From a virus (taxonomy: Duplodnaviria; Heunggongvirae; Uroviricota; Caudoviricetes): a stretch of 7,001 bases of DNA. The notes under the pieces are model-generated. The model did not search any database, was not told the origin of the DNA, and saw only the letters and a program-made list of their open reading frames with translations. The position numbers and the translations under genes are program-made. The stretch lies in the IMG/VR virus record IMGVR_UViG_2563366974_000011, positions 1 through 7,001 of that record; one strand, given 5' to 3'. Shown piece after piece: positions 1-7,001 of this stretch; the stretch's first letter is position 1, and each line of letters begins with the position of its first letter.

Positions 1-288
1 TTAACGGATCAACATCCAGATCAGCAGACACGCCACCACCGGCACAGCAAAATCCATCAGGCTTGCCACATCCCACGCGCGCGGATCAAAACCGCCCCAC
101 CACGGCATATTCATTCGCTTGCCATGCCCGAACATTTCAATCCAGCGATATTCTGCCTGGGTATGTTCACGCGCAATGAAGAACGTACAACCGGCTATCG
201 CTCCGTAAGCCCAGTTTCCGGTAAAAAGACCAACCAGTACCTGCGCAGCCACAGCACAAAGTGCATGAAGGAAAGGTGTTATATCCAT
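1..288 (-). CDS. Hypothetical small inner-membrane protein (95 aa, 2-3 predicted TM helices)
   Basis: ATG 286-288 preceded by AAAGGAGG. Hydrophobic segments at residues ~6-39 and ~74-95 flank an aromatic/charged loop (EYRWIEMFGHGKRMNMPWWGGFDPRAWD). TAA stop at 1-3, so the ORF is complete. No family recognised by eye. Confidence 0.6.
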   Translation of the reverse strand: MDITPFLHALCAVAAQVLVGLFTGNWAYGAIAGCTFFIAREHTQAEYRWIEMFGHGKRMNMPWWGGFDPRAWDVASLMDFAVPVVACLLIWMLIR

Positions 289-298
289 TACGCCTCCT

Positions 299-1003
299 TT
301 ATCCGATATCGCTTCGGGAAACGGATAACAACTTTAATTCTGACTCAAGTTCATCAACTCTTTCAGTCAGCTTCTGGATATGGTGAATCAGTGGAACAAC
401 CAGACGTTCGTACATTACACCTTCGGCAACAAGGCCATTGCTGGAAATGGTTTCCGGTGCATCATCTTCGTTGGCTGGTCGCCAGTGAACAAACTGAGGG
501 GCAATTTCTCCTACTTCCTCGGCAATCAATCCATAGAATCCCCAGTCACGCCTGTCATTTTCGCATTGCGACCTGTACCACACAGGGCGCATCCTGAAAA
601 TGAGATCGGCGTGCTCTGAATCTATCGTCTCTACTGAATGTTTATAGCGGATAGACGATGTTGACCGCAGCACAGACGAAATTGCAGGGTCAGGATTAAG
701 ATAAAGATTTGCCGCCGCTGTAGTTGTGCCCAATCCCCATAAATAAAACGCTTCACGGCCAGTCAGCGGGTAAAAATCTCCGCCATAACGACCACTTTCC
801 AGATCGTTCACTTCCACTTTGTTTTTCAGCTTATTATCCACTTCTGTTTTTGTGTATCTGGTACTGATATCCTGCTTTGCACTGTCCATATCAGTCTGAA
901 GCGTTGATACTTTTACGTTAATTGAGGAAATATCTTCCTTTGCCTTACTGACATCTCCCTTTAGCGTTTTGATGTCATCAGGAATTACTGTCGATGTAGC
1001 CAT
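299..1003 (-). CDS. Small fibre-like protein (234 aa): N-terminal coiled-coil segment plus C-terminal Peptidase_S74-like intramolecular chaperone domain
   Basis: ATG 1001-1003 preceded by GAGGAAG that overlaps the upstream TGA. Residues ~117-225 (SIRYKHSVETIDSEHADLIFRMRPVWYRSQCENDRRDWGFYGLIAEEVGEIAPQF...GLVAEGVMYERLVVPLIHHIQKLTERVDELESEL) follow the S74 pattern recalled from endosialidase and T5 L-shaped fibre C-termini. Residues ~10-70 are heptad-like and K/D/E-rich. Confidence 0.7.
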   Translation of the reverse strand: MATSTVIPDDIKTLKGDVSKAKEDISSINVKVSTLQTDMDSAKQDISTRYTKTEVDNKLKNKVEVNDLESGRYGGDFYPLTGREAFYLWGLGTTTAAANLYLNPDPAISSVLRSTSSIRYKHSVETIDSEHADLIFRMRPVWYRSQCENDRRDWGFYGLIAEEVGEIAPQFVHWRPANEDDAPETISSNGLVAEGVMYERLVVPLIHHIQKLTERVDELESELKLLSVSRSDIG

Positions 1004-1012
1004 TTTTCTTCC

Positions 1013-1294
1013 TCACATCCAGCTACGGAGTTGATGCTCAACAGCAACCGCGTGTTCATCGAATAATGACGATATTTGCGAATCATTAATGATGCGCACA
1101 TTTACAAAATATCCGTCCTCCTTAACACATACCGGCTCGCCATCTTCAGTCAGTTCTCCGGTTTCTTTGTACACATTACCTATCACGTCAATAAGAATAT
1201 CATCCTGCATCGACTCGTCATCATAATAGCCAATGCTCTCCATAAAGGCCGAAAAGTCGGCCCTGTCGACAAATTTGAGTGTTAAATCTTTCAT
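1013..1294 (-). CDS. Hypothetical small strongly acidic protein (93 aa), unknown function; translationally coupled to the fibre-tip frame
   Basis: ATG 1292-1294 overlaps the upstream TAA by 1 nt, with GGGGGAG about 8 nt upstream. About 21 Asp/Glu against 7 Lys/Arg. No signal peptide or TM segment. No family recognised by eye. TGA stop at 1013-1015. Confidence 0.6.
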   Translation of the reverse strand: MKDLTLKFVDRADFSAFMESIGYYDDESMQDDILIDVIGNVYKETGELTEDGEPVCVKEDGYFVNVRIINDSQISSLFDEHAVAVEHQLRSWM

Positions 1295-2043
1295 TAGATT
1301 AACTCCCCCACCTGAGCATCAGTCAATGCCTTGTGCCATATTCTGAAATTCCTGACATGACCAAATAAATGGCGTAAACCGGCTGTAGTCTGGCCTCCAA
1401 TACGGATAATTGCGGAGTTCTGAATACAGGACCATGTGGTTTTTGTTTCGCTGGATATACGCCCGTTACTTACTGCGCATGTAGACTGATCTGACTTTAC
1501 ACGCATCCCCATAACCATTTTTTCAAGCGATGCATTTTCGTTTATCCGCCTGTTAGCCCCACCAATATCGCAATAAGGAAATCCGTCGTAATCTGCTGAA
1601 GAACCGAAGCCAAGAATAATAGCCGCTCCGGTTTGATGACCGCCGGTATCAAAAACACGCGGTGCTGCATTTGGCGTTTTATACCAGTTCTTATGTACCT
1701 CACAAAGAACCGTAAAAGGTAGATTATAAAGATTATTCTTAATTGGGACTGTAACTATATCGCTTGCCCGCGTTCCTGCAGCTACCCCCGTAACAATAAA
1801 AGATGATGCGCCTGTTCCACCTTCAACCTGGGGAGTTGCGACATCCAGATAGTCTCCAGATGCTGTACTTTAACCTGTTACAGGAGCATACTGAACGAAC
1901 GCACCAACCGTGTTCTCTGTTGTTTCTGCATTAATTGTAGCCTCAAAAAAAATCCAGCCAGTAGCATCATCTTTTACAGCCCTTGCAATAATACGGTTTG
2001 TATCAGCTCCCGTTCTATCAATTCGGAGGGTTAATTTAATGCG
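1294..2043 (-). pseudogene. Start-less 3' portion of a tail-fibre gene encoding a LamG/concanavalin-A-like (jelly-roll lectin) receptor-binding tip; in frame with stf but cut off by stops
   Basis: Hand translation gives a 249-codon stop-free frame: RIKLTLRIDRTGADTNRIIARAVKDDATGWIFFEATINAE...GHVRNFRIWHKALTDAQVGELI*. It has no in-frame ATG/GTG/TTG until MVMGMR at 1516-1518 (the 74-aa track ORF). The C-terminal motif resembles the LamG consensus. Same phase (mod 3) as stf. Its TAA stop overlaps the next gene's ATG (TAATG). Confidence 0.55.
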
Positions 2044-2160
2044 TTATGTTTCTCTTAATGACGTTACAGCACCATCATAATGGTGTTCAAATATTAGACG
2101 ATACATTTTATCATCATCACTTTTTCCCAGACGGCATATAATGATAACCTATTCTTCCTC
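2044..2160 (-). other. AT-rich stop-dense junction separating the stf ORF from the in-frame fibre-tip remnant; possible recombination scar and/or internal promoter
   Basis: Hand translation of the minus strand: stops in the stf frame at 2161 (TGA), 2149 (TAG) and 2044 (TAA); three consecutive TGA in a second frame at 2111-2119; TAA at 2094 in the third frame. Holds a 20-codon ORF (MYRLIFEHHYDGAVTSLRET) and a -10-like TAATAT. Confidence 0.6.
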
Positions 2161-3672
2161 TCAAGTGACAACACATCCGGTACTGCCAGACAGCGCTACA
2201 ATGGTAAGAGCTTTACTCTTACCAACAAGCGTATCTTTTACAATAAATCTGCCATAAGTAAAACTGAAAGTATCTGTGCCTGTTTCTGTAACGTCCAGTG
2301 AAGTTGACTTATTCCACTTCGAAGGGTCTGTACTGTTAGGGAGAAGGTTCGTTCTTTGCCCCTCAATAAGCAGGCCATCACGTTCAAATCGTGGCTCGTC
2401 AATGGTAGCCTCTGTCAGCACACCAGATTTATTAATGTAAGTTGCTTTTGATGCGCGTTTAAACTTAACCACCTTGTCACCAGGCATCGTTATTTCGTCG
2501 TCACCAATAACAATCTTTTTATAAGATGGCGAAAAGCCCGTAATCATATCCAGTGAATCGTTAAACGGTATCCACACATCAGGCAGCGGCTGTAAGACAT
2601 ATTTATACGGATCTGCTGCCTGGCTTGCATACTCTCTGGCTGCGTCTTCACTTGCTTTTGCAGCGGTCTGGCTTGCAGCGGATGCTTTCGCCGAGTTCGC
2701 CGCTGCAGTCTCGCTTGTCTTTGCATTGGTTTCACTGGTTTTTGCTGCTTTTTGACTGTTGGCTGATGCAGTGGCAGAAGCAGCCGCCGCGCTTGCAGAA
2801 CCAGCTGCAGCACTCTCGCTTTGGGCTGCTGCATCCTGACTGTTTTTCGCCGCAGTTTCGCTGGCTTTGGCATTCGTTTCGCTGGTCTTCGCTGCCGTCT
2901 GGCTGGACTTTGCGTTAGTTTCACTCGTCTTCGCAGCTTTCTGGCTGTTAGCCGCAGCAGTTGCTGATCCAGCTGCTGAAGTCGCAGAACCGGCTGCCGC
3001 GCTCTCGCTTTGGGCTGCTGCAACCTGGCTGTTTTTTGCCGCAGTTTCACTGGCTTTGGCATTCGTTTCGCTTGTTTTCGCTGCCGTCTGGCTGGACTTT
3101 GCGTTGGTTTCGCTCGTCTTTGCGGCTGTCTCGCTATTTTTCGCGTTGGTTTCTGATTTTTTGGCTGCTGTCGCGGAGTTTGCCGATGCAGTCTTTGAGG
3201 TCGCTGCCGCCTGTGCACTATTAGCTGCATTCGTTTCTGAGGTTTTCGCCGCGTTCTTTGATGATGCCGCTGCAGTTTCGGATTTCTTTGCCGCCGCTGC
3301 GCTCTGAGAGGCGGCTTCGGCGTTGCGTGCCACTTCTTCCACCATTGCCTCAAAACGACGCAATGCCTCCGGCATGACATCATCTTCCGTCATGGCACCG
3401 AGAAAATCATTCAGCGTACCTGGTCTGGAACCTTCATAGACGGTAATGGTTCCGGCATGTGAAGGCGGAAAACCTTCAACCAGCAGGGTGACGCTGTACT
3501 GGCCATACTCAACATCCATGCTGTAACGCCCGGCTTCATCCGGATTTTCAGAGGCCACCGTGTTCACCAGTACCGTGGTGCTGTTACGCTTTGCCTTCAG
3601 TTGAATAGTGCAGTTCTGTATTGGTTTTCCCGCACCATCTTTCAGCACACCTGAGATTTTTACTGCTGCCAT
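2161..3672 (-). CDS. stf: Side tail fibre protein Stf, N-terminal tail-attachment domain plus Ala/Ser/Thr-rich repeat shaft (503 aa from ATG 3670-3672); terminates prematurely relative to the downstream in-frame fibre-tip remnant
   Basis: The ORF track starts at GTG 3676-3678, but the ATG two codons later has GGAG with a 5-nt spacer and gives MAAVKISGVLKDGAGKPIQNCTIQLKAKRNSTT..., matching the lambda/StfR N-terminus as I recall it. Contains long SETNAK/AAKTSE repeats. TGA stop at 2161-2163. Confidence 0.85.
   Translation of the reverse strand: MAAVKISGVLKDGAGKPIQNCTIQLKAKRNSTTVLVNTVASENPDEAGRYSMDVEYGQYSVTLLVEGFPPSHAGTITVYEGSRPGTLNDFLGAMTEDDVMPEALRRFEAMVEEVARNAEAASQSAAAAKKSETAAASSKNAAKTSETNAANSAQAAATSKTASANSATAAKKSETNAKNSETAAKTSETNAKSSQTAAKTSETNAKASETAAKNSQVAAAQSESAAAGSATSAAGSATAAANSQKAAKTSETNAKSSQTAAKTSETNAKASETAAKNSQDAAAQSESAAAGSASAAAASATASANSQKAAKTSETNAKTSETAAANSAKASAASQTAAKASEDAAREYASQAADPYKYVLQPLPDVWIPFNDSLDMITGFSPSYKKIVIGDDEITMPGDKVVKFKRASKATYINKSGVLTEATIDEPRFERDGLLIEGQRTNLLPNSTDPSKWNKSTSLDVTETGTDTFSFTYGRFIVKDTLVGKSKALTIVALSGSTGCVVT
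2813..3190. repeat. Two tandem 189-bp (63-codon) direct repeats inside stf, with nested ~21-bp sub-repeats and degenerate partial copies on both sides
   Basis: Anchor ctctcgctttgggctgctgca occurs at 2813 and 3002. Anchor ctggctttggcattcgtttcgct occurs at 2861 and 3050. Both give a 189-bp period. The protein shows AAKTSETNAKSSQTAAKTSETNAKASETAAKNSQ.AAAQSESAAAGSA... twice. Confidence 0.85.
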
Positions 3673-3682
3673 ATCCACTCCA

Positions 3683-3736: not shown

Positions 3737-4336
3737 TCAGAATTTATAACCGACACCCACGATGAAACCGTCAGTGCGCCAGTCGCCACTGCCGGAGCCT
3801 TCATAAGCAATATCAATGGCCACGGATTCGGTCGGGTTAAACTGCACGCCAGCTCCCCACGCCAGAGACGTGTTGCTGTGGCGATCGTCATCACTTCCGG
3901 TCAGCACATCGTGCGTTTTCCCCTTGTTGTCAGTTACGCGGAGATAATCCCCGGAGAACGTCGAAACACGGCTGTAAGCCACACCTGCCATCGCATAAGC
4001 ACTGAACCATTCATTCACGCGTACAGATGGCCCCGCCATCATGCTGAACCAGCGGTTACGCACTGAATCTTCATGCCAGCGGGTATCGCTGTAATGCGTT
4101 TTTTGCTCATCTTTGGCATTGGCATAACTGAATGACGTCACCAGCCCCAGCGTGTCCGTAAATTCATAACGGTATTTCACGTTAATGCCCTTCAGGTCAT
4201 CACTGCCTGGCATATCAGTATGGGTCTGAAGATACCCGGCGCTTAGTGTGGACTGATGCTCTGCTGCGCTCGCTGGCGTACCAGCGGCAACCAGCCAGAC
4301 TACTGCGGACAGAATAACAGCACATAATTTACGCAT
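3737..4336 (-). CDS. lom: Outer-membrane protein Lom (Ail/Lom/OmpX-family beta-barrel), 199 aa
   Basis: ATG at 4334-4336 with GAGAGG 6 nt upstream. N-terminal signal peptide MRKLCAVILSAVVWLVAAGTPASA|AE. C-terminal ...AIDIAYEGSGSGDWRTDGFIVGVGYKF ends in an aromatic residue as OM beta-barrels do and matches lambda Lom as I recall it. Position between J and stf as in lambda. Confidence 0.93.
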   Translation of the reverse strand: MRKLCAVILSAVVWLVAAGTPASAAEHQSTLSAGYLQTHTDMPGSDDLKGINVKYRYEFTDTLGLVTSFSYANAKDEQKTHYSDTRWHEDSVRNRWFSMMAGPSVRVNEWFSAYAMAGVAYSRVSTFSGDYLRVTDNKGKTHDVLTGSDDDRHSNTSLAWGAGVQFNPTESVAIDIAYEGSGSGDWRTDGFIVGVGYKF

Positions 4337-4403: not shown

Positions 4404-7001
4404 TCAGCTAATCGTGATGCCTGCAGTGGCTTTCTTCATCACAACAACCAGCAAATCGCTGATACTTGCTGTGGGATACCAGCCATTTACCAGCCATGCT
4501 GACACCGAAAACTCCAGTGTCATGTGACCGTGACCGGCAGGCATATCAATAACGCCACTGTAAATCAGCGTATTATCCAGCGCGGTACGGTTATAAATTT
4601 CAGCACCGTTTTTCCGCACTATCAGACGGCATGAGGAGTAAATATCAGTATGCTCTCTCTCATGCTTAGCGCCACTGAATGCCACAGCCGGAATAACAAT
4701 TTGCCGGTCAAACGGCTGATCGTCATAAACCCTGACGGTAATGGTCCCTGATGGCCACCGCTCCGGTGCCCGGGAGTCACGGGGGAAAGCTTTGCCCACT
4801 GTTTTAACGAGATCGCCTTCAATCTGGTTCGCGGACAGTTTTCCCAGAACCCGGCAGTTCTCGTTAATCGTGACGTTGTTGAGCGTCCCGGAGTTCGCAT
4901 TCACGTTACCGCTGATATCGGCATTTTTCGCCGTCAGCCGCCCGTCCGGTGTCAGGGAAAATGCCGGAGGATTACCGCCGCTGGTAATGGTCGGAGCCGT
5001 CAGGCGTTTCAGGAACACGTCGTTCATGAATATCTGGTTGCCCTGCGCCACAAACATCGGCGTTTCATTCCCGTTTGCCGGGTCAATAAACGCGATACGG
5101 TTAGCGGCAACCAGGAACTGGCTCAGTTTGCCTTCCTCCGTATCCTCCATGCTGAGGCCAAGCCCCGCGACATAATGTTTGCCGTCTTTGGTCTGCTCAA
5201 TTTTGACGCCCCACATGGCATTCCATTTATCGTTGGCGTCCTTCCACTCTTTCGAAAACTCCTCCAGTTTGCTGGCGTTATCTTCCGTCAGCTCAAAGTT
5301 TTCCAGCAGTTCCTTGCCGAGATGCGTTTTATTGATCAACCCTTTATAAAAATTCAGATAACCTTCCGCATCATCGCTCGCCCGACCAACGGCCTCCACA
5401 AATGCCGATTTACCAACGGTGTTCACGCTGCGGATATAAAAGTAATAATCATAACCCGGCTTAATATTGCTACTGGCGGCTATCCAGTACAGCGCCGTAC
5501 CAAGATAACGCGCGCTGGTTTCAACCTGCCTGATATCGATAATCCGCTTTTCCGAGAACCAGAACTCAAACTGCACCGTCGGGTCATATACAGCCAGTTT
5601 CGGGACCGCTGTTATCTGAAAATACCCTGGTATCAGTTCAATAGTGACAGGCGCTGCCGGTGCCGCAATCCGGAACGATACCGATGCCGGATCGCCCTGC
5701 TGCCCCCACGCATTTACCGCCCGGACCGTCAGCGTGTAACGCCCCAGCGCCAGTTGCCTGAAGCGGTATGTGGTTTCCGTCGTCCGGGCCATGCTGACCA
5801 GCCGCTCACTGCCGTCGTCCGCTGCCACGGTAAGGCGAAGCAGGAAGCTCACGCCCTTCACCACCTTCGGCGTGTCCCATCGCGCCAGCACCTGATATTC
5901 CCCGCTGTCTGCGGTGACTTCGGCGGTCAGGTGCTGCACCGCTGGCGGCGTGACACCATTCACCGTGCCGCTCTGGTCGCCGTCAAAGTGCGCCCCGTTA
6001 TCCACGATGGCTTCTTTTTCCGGTACATGCTGCACGGCGGTGATGGCATACGTACCGTCATCGTTCTCCCGGATACTCACACAGCGGAACAGGCGCTGGC
6101 GCAGCGTCGGCAGCTTCAGCCCCCATACGCTGTATTCAGCAACACCGTCAGGAACACGGCTCACTTTTACCTTCACGCCGTCGGTGACGGACTGAACCTC
6201 CACGCTGACCGGATTGCCACTTCCGTCAACCAGGCTTATCAGCGTGGTACCGGAGGATGGCAGCGTGATTTCACGGTCGAGCGTCAGCGTCCGGGTCTGG
6301 CTGTTCACCGCCAGCACACGACCACCGGTGCTGATACCGGCATAGTCATCATCACAGATTTCAATGACATCGCCCGGTACATGGCGAAGCCCTTCTGCGC
6401 CCACGCTGAAGTCCACGGTCTGCGTTTCCAGCAGTTCCGTTTTAATCAGCCACAGCCCGGCGCGGTGTGCCTGCCCCCGGCTGGTACAGCCAAAGGCATC
6501 CATCTTCGTGACGTTACGACCGTAACGGGCAATGGCCTGCGTATCTTCAACAAGCTCTGTCGCCGTCTCCCAGCCGTTGTTCGGGTCAATCCAGTTCACC
6601 TCAACGGCATTATGGCGGTCCTTCAGGGCGCTGAAGCTGTAGCGGAACGGCGCGCCATCATCCGGCATCACCACATTACTGCGGTTATAGGTCCACACCT
6701 TATCTGATGGTCGGTCCTGCACGAACGTCAGCGTCTGCCCGTTCCATACCGGCATACAGCGCATCGCCGAGCAGAAATCACTGAGAACATCCCACGCCTT
6801 GCGCTGTGTGGTCAGGCAGGCATTACAGGTGATGCGCGGCTCCGTGCCACCAAAGCCATCCGGCACCGACTGGTCGCAATTCTGGCCGATGACATACAGC
6901 GCCCATTTGTCCACATCCGCCGCACCGAGACGCTTCCCCATGCCGTAGCGCGGATGGGTCAGCATATCCCACAGACACCAGGCCATGTTGTTGCTGTATG
7001 C
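4404..7001 (-). CDS. J: Host specificity protein J (tail tip / central tail fibre), C-terminal ~865 codons; 5' end lies beyond the window
   Basis: The ORF track gives an 860-aa minus ORF 4404-6986 from an internal Met. The frame stays open up to the window edge (codons above 6986 read ..AYSNN with no stop). TGA stop at 4404-4406. Sits immediately upstream of lom as in lambda. Very long, GC-rich; assignment is by recall of the J family, not a search. Confidence 0.9.

What the first reader, a model, noticed from the sequence alone, without database searches (positions are those of the whole stretch)
1..1294. Tightly coupled three-gene cassette of unknown function downstream of the tail fibre
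Three small ORFs follow the fibre tip with overlapping or near-overlapping stops and starts (TAATG; TGA inside the GAGGAAG SD; TAA then AAAGGAGG), indicating co-translation as one unit. None resembles lambda tfa as I recall it. The region just past the tail-fibre gene is a known hotspot for exclusion, receptor-blocking and lysogenic-conversion cargo (e.g. Cor in phi80/N15, gtr genes in Salmonella phages). The combination of acidic cytoplasmic protein, S74-domain fibre-like protein and small membrane protein is not one I recognise, so it could be an undescribed fibre-maturation or exclusion module.
Basis: inference. Interest (0 to 1): 0.6.

Follow-up and report, generated by a model that had tools for sequence, protein, structure and literature searches.

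The report
Fibre accessory genes plus membrane protein
The three small genes are real and tightly packed, but they are not one new cassette: two are accessory parts of a common two-piece phage tail fibre, and the third is an uncharacterised small membrane protein that moves independently and sits just after the receptor-binding genes of many prophages.

Summary
The stretch is 100% identical to E. coli MLI109, and related DNA occurs in 1,913 of 5,426 complete E. coli genomes.

- **p93** always follows a fibre gene ending in a LamG-like domain. This holds in lambda-, T1-, 9g-, T5- and rV5-like phages, most of them lytic, so it serves the fibre and is not lysogen cargo.
- **p234** is a second, short fibre subunit. 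It has a conserved N-terminal docking peptide, a variable middle and a C-terminal self-cleaving S74 chaperone domain, which resembles the branched LtfA/LtfB fibres of phage DT57C.
- **p95** is a three-helix membrane protein under purifying selection, and its sequence does not track the fibre alleles. It lies after the last receptor-binding gene in lambda-like, P22-like and myovirus-type prophages of several proteobacterial classes. It also occurs as a chromosomal orphan and as a decayed remnant in one phage with no lysogeny genes nearby. It is a candidate exclusion or conversion protein, but its function is untested.

No database or paper that I searched assigns a function to p93 or p95. The stf gene in this window carries four unexplained in-frame stops.

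The parts
1013..1294 (-). p93: a 93-aa acidic alpha/beta protein of the phrog_1361 family. Its start overlaps the stf stop (TAATG). It is proposed to be an accessory of the LamG-type fibre tip, acting as an assembly chaperone or an adaptor.
299..1003 (-). p234: a second, short tail-fibre subunit. [quoted passage not shown]
   Evidence: Pfam Peptidase_S74. phrog_3299 positions 1147-1384 of 1385, E=5e-139. Similar to the C-terminus of DT57C LtfA, chain 8hqz_d. RefSeq names it 'tail fiber domain-containing protein'.
944..1003 (-). Conserved N-terminal peptide of p234 (MATSTVIPDDIKTLKGDVSK), a putative docking motif onto the proximal fibre.
   Evidence: The motif M[AV]T[SK]T[VN]IP.DI..LK is found at the start of the fibre-2 gene in lambda-like, T1-like, 9g-like and T5-like phages. 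The sequence after it varies in content and length, from 227 to 388 aa. PHROG hits to residues 1-32 of two other fibre families.
302..658 (-). S74 intramolecular-chaperone domain of p234 (residues 116-234). The predicted self-cleavage site is T115|S116, with K121 as the dyad partner.
   Evidence: The Pfam match starts at residue 116. The S-x4-K pattern SSIRYK aligns with TSGIEYK of DT57C LtfA and with SDRDLK and SDSRVK in relatives. The cleavage chemistry is from published knowledge of endosialidase and T5 pb1 IMC domains and was not tested here.
1..288 (-). p95: a 95-aa three-helix membrane protein of the phrog_1443 family (named 'Ybl63' in one UniRef entry). It is an independently mobile gene that sits after receptor-binding modules.
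   Evidence: PHROG hit at E=2.5e-58 with no function annotated. No Pfam, NCBIfam or PADLOC hit. AF2 pLDDT 94.6 with helices at 4-23, 26-53 and 74-94. Invariant residues include H8, R40, E41, Q44-W49, G56, R58, P62, G65, G66, W72 and P83.
1294..3678 (-). stf side-tail-fibre gene, the proximal fibre. It has the prophage fibre N-terminal domain, an Ala/Ser-rich repeat shaft and a LamG-like C-terminal domain. In this window it is broken by four in-frame stops.
   Evidence: Pfam phage_tail_N at E=2.5e-67, and Laminin_G_3 at E=9e-4 (19.9 bits, below the 27.6-bit gathering cut-off) on the last 74 aa. phrog_1419 positions 1-499 and 720-793. Translation with stops. The intact 792-aa homologue.
1297..2286 (-). 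LamG-like C-terminal domain of Stf (about 330 aa). Its last roughly 45 aa (IRIGGQT.AG.RHLFGH.RNFRIWHK.L) are conserved across phage families and are always followed by a p93-family gene.
   Evidence: Alignment of fibre C-termini from lambda-like, T1-like, 9g-like, T5-like and rV5-like phages. Local HMM hits.
1775..2270 (-). Anomalous substitution patch within stf that contains the four in-frame stops.
   Evidence: 133 substitutions against MLI109 with no indels. Transitions to transversions 40:93. Codon positions 35/40/58. The flanks are 99-100% identical. No closer allele in 5,426 E. coli genomes.

Best explanation
Window 1-1294 is the distal end of a lambdoid prophage's receptor-binding locus. 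It holds two functionally different things.

(1) A fibre module. Stf is the proximal fibre and ends in a LamG-like domain. p93 is a small acidic partner of that domain. Most likely it is a dedicated folding or assembly factor, and alternatively a small adaptor subunit. p234 is a short distal fibre subunit. It trimerises with the help of its own C-terminal S74 chaperone domain, which then cuts itself off at about T115|S116. The mature part docks on the Stf tip through the conserved N-terminal peptide, giving a two-part (branched or extended) side fibre.

(2) p95, a separate three-helix inner-membrane protein that is not needed to build virions. It is carried mainly by temperate phages, just after whatever their last receptor-binding gene is. 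I commit to the view that it acts in the cell envelope of the lysogen or infected cell to exclude incoming phage. The most likely point of action is the inner-membrane DNA-entry step.

What is shown: the gene order, the domain content, the distribution, the separability of the parts and the purifying selection. What is inferred: the chaperone or adaptor role of p93, the docking of p234 on Stf, the self-cleavage, and any activity of p95.
For: Fibre module:
- The order LamG-tipped fibre, then p93, then a fibre-2 gene starting with M[AV]T[SK]T[VN]IP.DI..LK is conserved in lambda-like prophages, T1-like KarlJaspers, 9g-like ESCO3 and VogelGryff and T5-like VSe12.
- rV5-like phages keep the fibre plus p93.
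- Most of these phages are strictly lytic, so p93 and p234 serve the virion.
- p93 stays with the LamG tip when fibre-2 is absent, as in phage 21 and PhiR41_1.
- p234 passes the S74 gathering threshold and keeps the Ser...Lys pattern. Relatives share its two ends but carry different, larger middle regions, as expected of exchangeable receptor-binding domains.
- Precedents exist. LtfB docks on LtfA through a conserved N-terminal 45 aa (PMC4728585, PMC10713586). T-shaped IMC fibres sit on a proximal fibre with a galectin-like tip (PMC11990801).

p95:
- It lies after a P22-type tailspike and before int, behind a terminator-like hairpin and a weak promoter-like site.
- It lies next to an OafA O-acetylase gene in phage 611R6.
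- It lies after S74-ended fibres in Aeromonas, Leclercia and Desulfovibrio prophages, after p93-like or DUF4376 proteins in Pantoea, Comamonas and Halomonas, and after a tail-fibre-assembly gene in phiHAP-1.
- Mean identity is 93%, with no correlation to the fibre alleles (r = 0.06-0.11).
- Synonymous codon differences outnumber non-synonymous ones, 15,448 to 7,190.
- In phage HC6, which has no lysogeny genes in the stretch viewed, it survives only as a frameshifted remnant after an S74-ended fibre.
- Five of its six K/R residues lie in the 40-73 loop, which by the positive-inside rule suggests that the conserved loop faces the cytoplasm (inference from the sequence).
Against: - There is no direct evidence for any protein-protein contact.
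- The co-variation of p93 with the Stf tip (r = 0.30-0.38) and with the fibre-2 N-terminus (r = 0.39) is what physical linkage alone would give.
- Nearly identical p93 proteins occur with Stf tips that are only about 47% identical. This argues against a tightly allele-specific chaperone.
- The mature part of p234 would be only about 115 aa, which is small for a receptor-binding fibre.
- In this window p95 has no promoter match of its own and is translationally close-coupled to p234. In several myovirus-type prophages it sits in the middle of the tail operon. A role in the lytic cycle therefore cannot be excluded.
- p95 has non-prophage chromosomal homologues and conserved His/Glu/Arg/Asp residues, which could indicate an enzyme.
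- It shows no similarity to any known exclusion protein, and its fold search was uninformative.
Confidence: 0.6

Rival explanations
1. All three proteins form one obligate unit, a fibre-maturation or exclusion module in which the membrane protein p95 works together with p93 and p234.
For: The start-stop junctions are close-coupled. The full trio recurs in many E. coli prophages. p95 often directly follows S74-ended fibres even in distant taxa and p93-like genes in Pantoea and Comamonas.
Against: Every pairwise combination occurs without the third member. p95 is absent from the lytic phages that keep p93 and fibre-2, and it is decayed in HC6. p95 is uncorrelated with the fibre alleles. It also exists as a chromosomal orphan.
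Confidence: 0.1
2. p234 is not a fibre subunit. It would be a trans-acting chaperone for Stf, as the database names 'chaperone of endosialidase' and 'putative lateral tail fiber chaperone' imply.
For: Annotations in the BASEL and ESCO3 records. The part before the S74 domain is short, at 115 aa.
Against: Characterised S74 domains act in cis on the polypeptide they end and are then released (published knowledge on endoNF and T5 pb1). p234 matches the C-terminal tip plus IMC of 1,385-aa fibres. Relatives carry inserts of 110-270 aa, the size of a receptor-binding domain, between a conserved N-terminal peptide and the IMC. That pattern fits a modular fibre, not a chaperone.
Confidence: 0.12
3. 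p95 is a lysogenic-conversion factor. It would alter the envelope, for example by modulating LPS, O-antigen or another lipid-linked pathway, rather than block DNA entry.
For: In P22-like phages it occupies the slot between tailspike and int, which to my knowledge is where P22 carries gtrABC. It lies beside an OafA O-acetylase gene in 611R6. Conserved H8, E41, H42 and D79 near one membrane face could form an active site. It has cellular homologues. From my reading of the upstream ORF translations, which I did not verify, two of these lie next to a KdsA-like gene. One lies about 1.2 kb from lipid A acyltransferase genes.
Against: At 95 aa it is very small for an enzyme. No Pfam family, including GtrA, matches. 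The charge distribution suggests that the conserved loop faces the cytoplasm. The chromosomal neighbourhoods are inconsistent.
Confidence: 0.2
4. p234 is a relic: the 3' end of an older, longer fibre gene left behind when a LamG-tip-plus-p93 segment recombined in. On this view it is no longer functional.
For: It aligns with the last 238 positions of the 1,385-position phrog_3299 fibre profile. Fibre loci are highly mosaic. A 38-aa S74 remnant precedes p95 in 611R6.
Against: It has its own Shine-Dalgarno sequence and ATG. No internal stop occurs in 24 distinct versions, and substitutions concentrate at third codon positions (20/25/65). Its N-terminal peptide is conserved across four phage families exactly at the gene start.
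Confidence: 0.07

Closest known systems
Branched lateral tail fibres LtfA/LtfB of T5-like phages DT57C and DT571/2, and the related two-protein lateral fibres of BASEL siphoviruses
   Same: A proximal fibre anchored to the tail carries a second fibre protein encoded just downstream. The second protein has a short conserved N-terminal docking segment and a C-terminal S74-type intramolecular chaperone. The p234 IMC aligns with the LtfA C-terminus (PMC4728585, PMC10713586, PMC11990801).
   Different: Here a p93-family gene always lies between the two fibre genes, and the proximal fibre ends in a LamG-like domain. The DT57C protein list gives LtfA (gp108) and LtfB (gp107) consecutive numbers, so no gene lies between them (PMC10713586). 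The docking peptide differs from the phiEco32 gp15-like N-terminus of LtfB. The mature p234 is very short, at about 115 aa.
Intramolecular chaperone (Peptidase_S74) domains of K1F endosialidase and the T5 L-shaped fibre pb1
   Same: A C-terminal domain with a Ser...Lys pattern at its start (S116...K121). Pfam match above the gathering cut-off.
   Different: The domain is attached to a minimal 115-aa fibre fragment rather than to a long fibre or tailspike. Self-cleavage was not tested.
Lambda Stf/Tfa, and the Mu, P2 and T4 tail-fibre assembly chaperones
   Same: p93 has the same position (immediately 3' of the fibre gene) and the same kind of linkage to the fibre's C-terminal domain as Tfa.
Phage superinfection-exclusion and receptor-blocking proteins encoded next to receptor-binding genes (Cor of phi80, N15 and T1; Llp of T5) and inner-membrane exclusion proteins (T4 Imm, P22 SieA, HK97 gp15)
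   Same: p95 shares the genomic slot just after the receptor-binding genes, its small size, its membrane location, its mainly temperate distribution and its dispensability for virion building.
   Different: p95 has no lipoprotein signal, since LHALC is not a lipobox. It has no sequence similarity to any of these proteins. It does not co-vary with receptor specificity. It has cellular homologues. No exclusion phenotype has been tested.

Membership tests
Peptidase_S74 / intramolecular chaperone auto-processing domain (p234) | Sequence match to the family profile above the curated threshold | tested here: met
   PF13884: 27.3 bits against a cut-off of 22, covering residues 116-172 and profile positions 1-57 of 58. 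Supported by the match to the DT57C LtfA C-terminus.
Peptidase_S74 / intramolecular chaperone auto-processing domain (p234) | Conserved Ser at the cleavage site with a Lys five residues downstream | tested here: met
   S116-S-I-R-Y-K121. It aligns with S-G-I-E-Y-K of LtfA and with SDRDLK and SDSRVK in relatives. The dyad's catalytic role is from published work on endoNF.
Peptidase_S74 / intramolecular chaperone auto-processing domain (p234) | Autoproteolytic release after trimerisation | not testable with these tools
   This needs protein expression with SDS-PAGE or mass spectrometry.
Two-protein (branched) lateral fibre, LtfA/LtfB type | The second fibre protein has a conserved N-terminal segment, and its distal part is variable | tested here: met
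   The motif M[AV]T[SK]T[VN]IP.DI..LK is conserved in four phage families. The rest of the protein has a mean identity of 54% and a minimum of 14%.
Two-protein (branched) lateral fibre, LtfA/LtfB type | Physical attachment of the second protein to the first | not testable with these tools
   No multimer prediction was available. This needs cryo-EM, pull-down or genetics.
Tail-fibre assembly chaperones (lambda Tfa / Caudo_TAP, DUF4376 and similar) as a home for p93 | Profile match to a known Tfa family | tested here: not met
Tail-fibre assembly chaperones as a home for p93 | Obligate genomic linkage to one type of fibre C-terminal domain | tested here: met
   In every locus examined from the five phage lineages, p93 follows the LamG-like tip directly.
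Cor/Llp receptor-blocking lipoproteins (p95) | Signal peptide with a lipobox, or homology to Cor or Llp | tested here: not met
   The N-terminus MDITPFLHALCAV has no basic n-region, and L10 stands at position -1 to the Cys (sequence). No family hits.
Known inner-membrane exclusion proteins (T4 Imm, P22 SieA, HK97 gp15) and PADLOC defence proteins (p95) | Sequence homology | tested here: not met
   No Pfam, PHROG-annotated, NCBIfam or PADLOC match. A functional analogy remains possible.
Known inner-membrane exclusion proteins (p95) | An exclusion phenotype on expression | not testable with these tools
   This needs plating, adsorption and DNA-entry assays.
Gtr-type O-antigen conversion (GtrA-like) as a home for p95 | GtrA-like profile match and partner gtrB or gtr(type) genes | tested here: not met
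   No PF04138 hit. No gtr genes are adjacent in any locus examined.
Holins (p95) | Location in a lysis cassette, or a match to a holin family | tested here: not met
   p95 lies at the end of the tail-fibre locus, and no endolysin or spanin gene is annotated in the loci examined. No holin family hit. In the Comamonas locus the downstream small genes have no Pfam hit and remain unidentified.

The most novel reading that the evidence does not exclude
p95 (phrog_1443, 'Ybl63') would found a new and widespread class of small inner-membrane proteins. Phages of alpha-, beta-, gamma- and deltaproteobacteria would carry it immediately after their receptor-binding genes to protect the lysogen, by exclusion at DNA entry or by a new envelope modification. 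In parallel, p93 would be a new kind of small chaperone or adaptor specific to LamG-tipped fibres, the piece that lets a second IMC-bearing fibre plug onto the first.
Probability: 0.3. Interest if true: 0.6.

Novelty: new variant of a known kind. Interest (0 to 1): 0.4.

Why it matters
Side and lateral fibre loci set phage host range, and they are being engineered for phage therapy and DNA delivery. Three practical points follow.
- Many E. coli Stf genes come with an obligatory small partner (p93) and a plug-in second fibre with a recognisable docking peptide. This tells engineers which genes must be moved together and where the modules can be swapped.
- The conserved Stf N-terminus and p95 form natural recombination arms around the variable region.
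- DNA related to this stretch of the fibre locus occurs in about a third of complete E. coli genomes, and p95 homologues occur in many other Proteobacteria. If p95 is an exclusion or conversion factor, it would be a common and so far unrecognised determinant of phage resistance in lysogens.

None of this overturns current concepts. It fills in uncharacterised parts of a known kind of locus.

Tried and rejected
- **Family searches.** Pfam, NCBIfam and PADLOC gave nothing for p93 or p95. PDB sequence searches gave only chance hits: GAPDH for p93 and antibodies for p95.
- **Co-variation (Mantel) analysis.** I hoped it would show whether p93 tracks the Stf tip or fibre-2. It correlates modestly with both neighbours, as linkage alone predicts, so it does not discriminate.
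- **A diversity-generating retroelement as the cause of the stf patch.** Rejected: substitutions arise from all four bases with no adenine bias, and no reverse transcriptase is present in the window.
- **Natural divergent allele as the cause of the patch.** No allele closer than about 76% identity exists in 5,426 E. coli genomes or about 150 viral contigs.
- **Literature.** Searches for 'Ybl63', the HannyBb and ECOR13 phages, and fibre, chaperone or exclusion terms found no study of p93 or p95.
- **Promoter scan.** The simple scan found no sigma-70 match for p95 in the window. The single weak match in the P22-like context is only suggestive.
- **Technical failures.** A first attempt to fetch p93 loci with the divergent alignment failed for lack of conserved columns. 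The first codon-position count for p95 was mis-registered and was redone.
Full report
**What is in the window.** All long ORFs lie on the minus strand. In order they are a lambda J-type tail-tip gene (4404-6986, cut at the window edge), lom (3737-4336), a side-tail-fibre gene stf (1294-3678) and three small ORFs: p93 (1013-1294), p234 (299-1003) and p95 (1-288). Terminator-like hairpins follow J and lom, as in lambda. The window is 97.6% identical overall to a prophage of E. coli MLI109 that lies next to yodB. There the same genes are annotated as gpJ, Ail/Lom, 'prophage tail fiber N-terminal domain-containing protein', hypothetical, 'tail fiber domain-containing protein' and hypothetical. Window 1-1294 is 100% identical to that genome.

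**Check of the observation.**
- TAATG, a one-base overlap of the stf stop and the p93 start.
- TGAGGAAGAAAAATG, with the p93 stop inside the Shine-Dalgarno sequence of p234.
- TAAAGGAGGCGTAATG, between p234 and p95.

p93 is acidic (pI 4.1). p234 carries Pfam Peptidase_S74 above threshold. p95 is hydrophobic, and a confident AF2 model (pLDDT 94.6) shows three helices.

The ORFs are real genes. Among 24-65 distinct nucleotide versions of each from related loci, none has an internal stop. Variable sites concentrate at third codon positions: p234 20/25/65, p95 16/9/39 and p93 21/21/38. DNA related to window 1-2200 is found in 1,913 of 5,426 complete E. coli genomes.

**The first two genes belong to the fibre.** By tblastn, the p93 family (phrog_1361, unknown function) occurs in 181 phage records. 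These are lambda-like phages, T1-like Drexlerviridae, Dhillonvirus, 9g-like Queuovirinae, T5-like Markadamsvirinae and rV5-like Vequintavirinae. In every locus I opened, the gene starts at or overlaps the stop of a lateral or side fibre gene.

The C-terminal 330 aa or so of those fibres align with one another. They end in a strongly conserved IRIGGQT.TG.RHLFGH.RNFRIWHK.L segment. On the window's last 74 aa this segment gives only a sub-threshold match to Laminin_G_3 (E=9e-4, 19.9 bits against a 27.6-bit cut-off). Because most of these phages are strictly lytic, p93 cannot be lysogen cargo. It serves the virion's fibre.

**p234 is a second fibre protein, not just a chaperone.** Its residues 116-234 are an S74 intramolecular chaperone domain. 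The SSIRYK start aligns with TSGIEYK at the C-terminus of DT57C LtfA. The whole protein matches the last 238 positions of a 1,385-position fibre profile.

In T1-like KarlJaspers, 9g-like ESCO3 and VogelGryff, T5-like VSe12 and lambda-like prophages, the gene after p93 begins with the same peptide, M[AV]T[SK]T[VN]IP.DI..LK. It ends with an S74 domain in every one of these except VSe12, where the end of the gene was not resolved. What lies between differs in sequence and length, from 227 or 234 aa up to 346-388 aa.

A conserved N-terminal peptide, a variable middle and a cis-acting chaperone form the signature of a modular fibre subunit that plugs onto a conserved partner. This is the logic shown genetically for LtfB on LtfA in DT57C (PMC4728585, PMC10713586). 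It was also predicted for IMC-bearing distal fibres on a proximal fibre with a galectin-like tip in BASEL phages (PMC11990801). The database names 'chaperone of endosialidase' and 'putative lateral tail fiber chaperone' come from the Pfam domain name and probably understate the protein. The mature p234 in this window would be only about 115 aa, a coiled coil plus a small tip. That is a weak point for a receptor-binding role.

**What p93 does.** Two readings fit: a dedicated assembly factor for the LamG-type tip, or a small adaptor between that tip and fibre-2.
- p93 is retained where fibre-2 is absent, in phage 21 and PhiR41_1. The rV5-like phages also keep it without the docking motif. This favours a partnership with the Stf tip itself.
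- Pairwise-identity matrices over 77 distinct locus versions show that p93 correlates modestly with the Stf tip (r = 0.30-0.38) and with the first 35 aa of fibre-2 (r = 0.39). It does not correlate with the rest of fibre-2 (r = 0.05). Physical linkage alone predicts the same pattern.
- Near-identical p93 proteins sit beside Stf tips that are only about 47% identical. The analysis therefore does not decide.

I put chaperone against adaptor at roughly 60:40.

**p95 travels independently.** By tblastn it occurs in 73 phage records. Apart from partial matches in Aeromonas jumbo phages and a few other phages, these are temperate. Its contexts are as follows.
- In lambda-like phages, including phage 21, it is the last gene of the fibre locus.
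- In P22-like Gally it stands alone between the tailspike and int. It follows a 9-bp-stem terminator-like hairpin and an AT-rich spacer with one weak promoter-like site.
- In 611R6 it lies there beside an OafA O-acetylase gene and a 38-aa S74 remnant.
- In phiHAP-1 it overlaps the stop of a tail-fibre assembly gene.
- Profile-guided scans of one genome per species found 70 loci in gamma-, beta-, alpha- and deltaproteobacteria.
- In prophage settings it directly follows an S74-ended fibre (Aeromonas media, Leclercia, Desulfovibrio), a p93-like protein of phrog_18574 (Pantoea, Comamonas), a DUF4376 protein (Pantoea, Halomonas) or J (Comamonas).
- It also occurs as a non-prophage chromosomal gene in Aeromonas, Leclercia, Silvania and sphingomonads.
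- In phage HC6 an S74-ended fibre is followed by a frameshifted p95 remnant. No lysogeny genes were seen in the stretch I viewed, but I did not establish that HC6 is lytic.

Within E. coli prophages, p95 is on average 93% identical while the fibre tips fall to 25-35%. Its identity does not track any fibre part.

p95 therefore appears not to be required for making fibres, and it is not matched to a receptor specificity. It behaves like an accessory ('moron') gene that rides at the 3' edge of receptor-binding modules. Together with the conserved Stf N-terminus, it also brackets the hypervariable segment like a recombination arm.

**What p95 might do.** There is no homology to Cor, Llp, Imm, SieA, GtrA, holins or any PADLOC defence protein, and the fold search is uninformative. 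The invariant residues are H8, R40, E41, Q44-W49, G56, R58, P62, G65, G66, W72 and P83. They cluster in and around the 40-73 loop. That loop holds five of the six basic residues, so it probably faces the cytoplasm. This is an inference from the positive-inside rule.

My committed guess is an inner-membrane exclusion function at DNA entry, at about 0.35. An envelope or lipid-linked modification role follows at about 0.2. A lytic-cycle role that I cannot define takes the remainder. None of these is shown.

It is partly supported. The description is accurate, and the hunch of 'fibre maturation or exclusion' captures both halves. However, the three genes are not one cassette. The fibre-related pair also occurs in lytic phages, and the combination is widespread.

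**An unexplained side observation.** The stf gene of this window keeps a single frame but carries four stop codons. They lie inside a patch of about 500 bp (1775-2270) with these properties:
- It differs from MLI109 at 133 positions, with no indels.
- The transition-to-transversion ratio is 40:93.
- The spread over codon positions is nearly even (35/40/58).
- The flanks are 99-100% identical.
- No closer allele exists in 5,426 E. coli genomes or in about 150 viral contigs.
- There is no adenine bias, so it does not resemble the work of a diversity-generating retroelement.

The patch looks like random substitution, and I cannot explain it. It means that in this particular sequence the proximal fibre is not intact.

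**Novelty and score.** The fibre part is a variant of the known two-protein lateral-fibre design, with an added, uncharacterised small partner. p95 is an uncharacterised family with a striking positional conservation. A specialist would find this a useful lead rather than a surprise. I score interest at 0.4.

Noticed in passing
window 1775-2270 (within stf, minus strand): A patch of about 500 bp with 133 substitutions relative to E. coli MLI109. It has no indels, a transition-to-transversion ratio of 40:93, a near-even spread over codon positions and four in-frame stops (TGA, TAG, TAA, TAA). The flanks are 99-100% identical. No closer allele exists in 5,426 E. coli genomes. The pattern is random-like and is not DGR-like.
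   Followed up: partly
L247 (Escherichia phage HC6) 843-3624: An 859-aa fibre ending in an S74 domain is followed directly by a frameshifted, unannotated remnant of a p95 gene. The gene has therefore decayed in this phage, which shows no lysogeny genes in the stretch I viewed. The same remnant appears in ST1UNAM, ZCEC08 and PBM-2/3.
   Followed up: partly
L010 (Salmonella phage VSe12) about 5292-6231: The annotated start of 'tail fiber protein' gp088 (5398) appears to be wrong. An upstream in-frame start right after the p93 homologue gives the conserved docking peptide MVTKTVIPTDITKLK.
   Followed up: partly
window 3280-3675 and 1-288; loci L092-L170: The Stf N-terminus (96-100% identical) and p95 (mean 93%) are conserved segments. 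They bracket a hypervariable stretch made of the fibre tip, p93 and fibre-2. This is the layout expected if the fibre modules are swapped by homologous recombination between the two arms.
   Followed up: partly
L195 4484-4999; L198 and L200 4432-4998; L203 5135-5587: In Pantoea, Comamonas and Chelativorans prophages a p93-like domain (phrog_18574) is fused to, or extended by, a further domain of about 90 aa (phrog_6034, unknown function). It lies directly next to the p95 homologue, on the downstream side in Chelativorans.
   Followed up: partly
L006, L182-L194, L208-L240: p95 homologues also occur as apparently non-prophage chromosomal genes in Aeromonas, Leclercia, Silvania and sphingomonads, with inconsistent neighbours. 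From my unverified reading of the upstream ORF translations, two lie next to a KdsA-like gene. One lies about 1.2 kb from two lipid A acyltransferase genes.
   Followed up: no
window about 2600-3300 (stf shaft): The shaft of Stf is a long Ala/Ser/Thr/Lys-rich region with near-exact internal duplications, for example SQTAAKTSETNAKASETAAKNSQ...AAAQSESAAAGS occurring twice. It causes strong AT skew and long spurious ORFs on the opposite strand.
   Followed up: no
L171 (phage Gally) 3760-4001: In this P22-like phage the p95 homologue is its own unit: the tailspike stop, a 9-bp-stem terminator-like hairpin, about 190 nt of AT-rich spacer with one weak promoter-like site, an AAGGAG Shine-Dalgarno sequence and then the gene. 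The integrase gene converges from the other side.
   Followed up: partly
L004 (PhiR41_1, 108 kb, carries ParA): A large genome with a ParA partition gene, possibly a phage-plasmid. It carries J, a split stf, a p93 homologue and a p95 homologue, but no fibre-2 gene.
   Followed up: no
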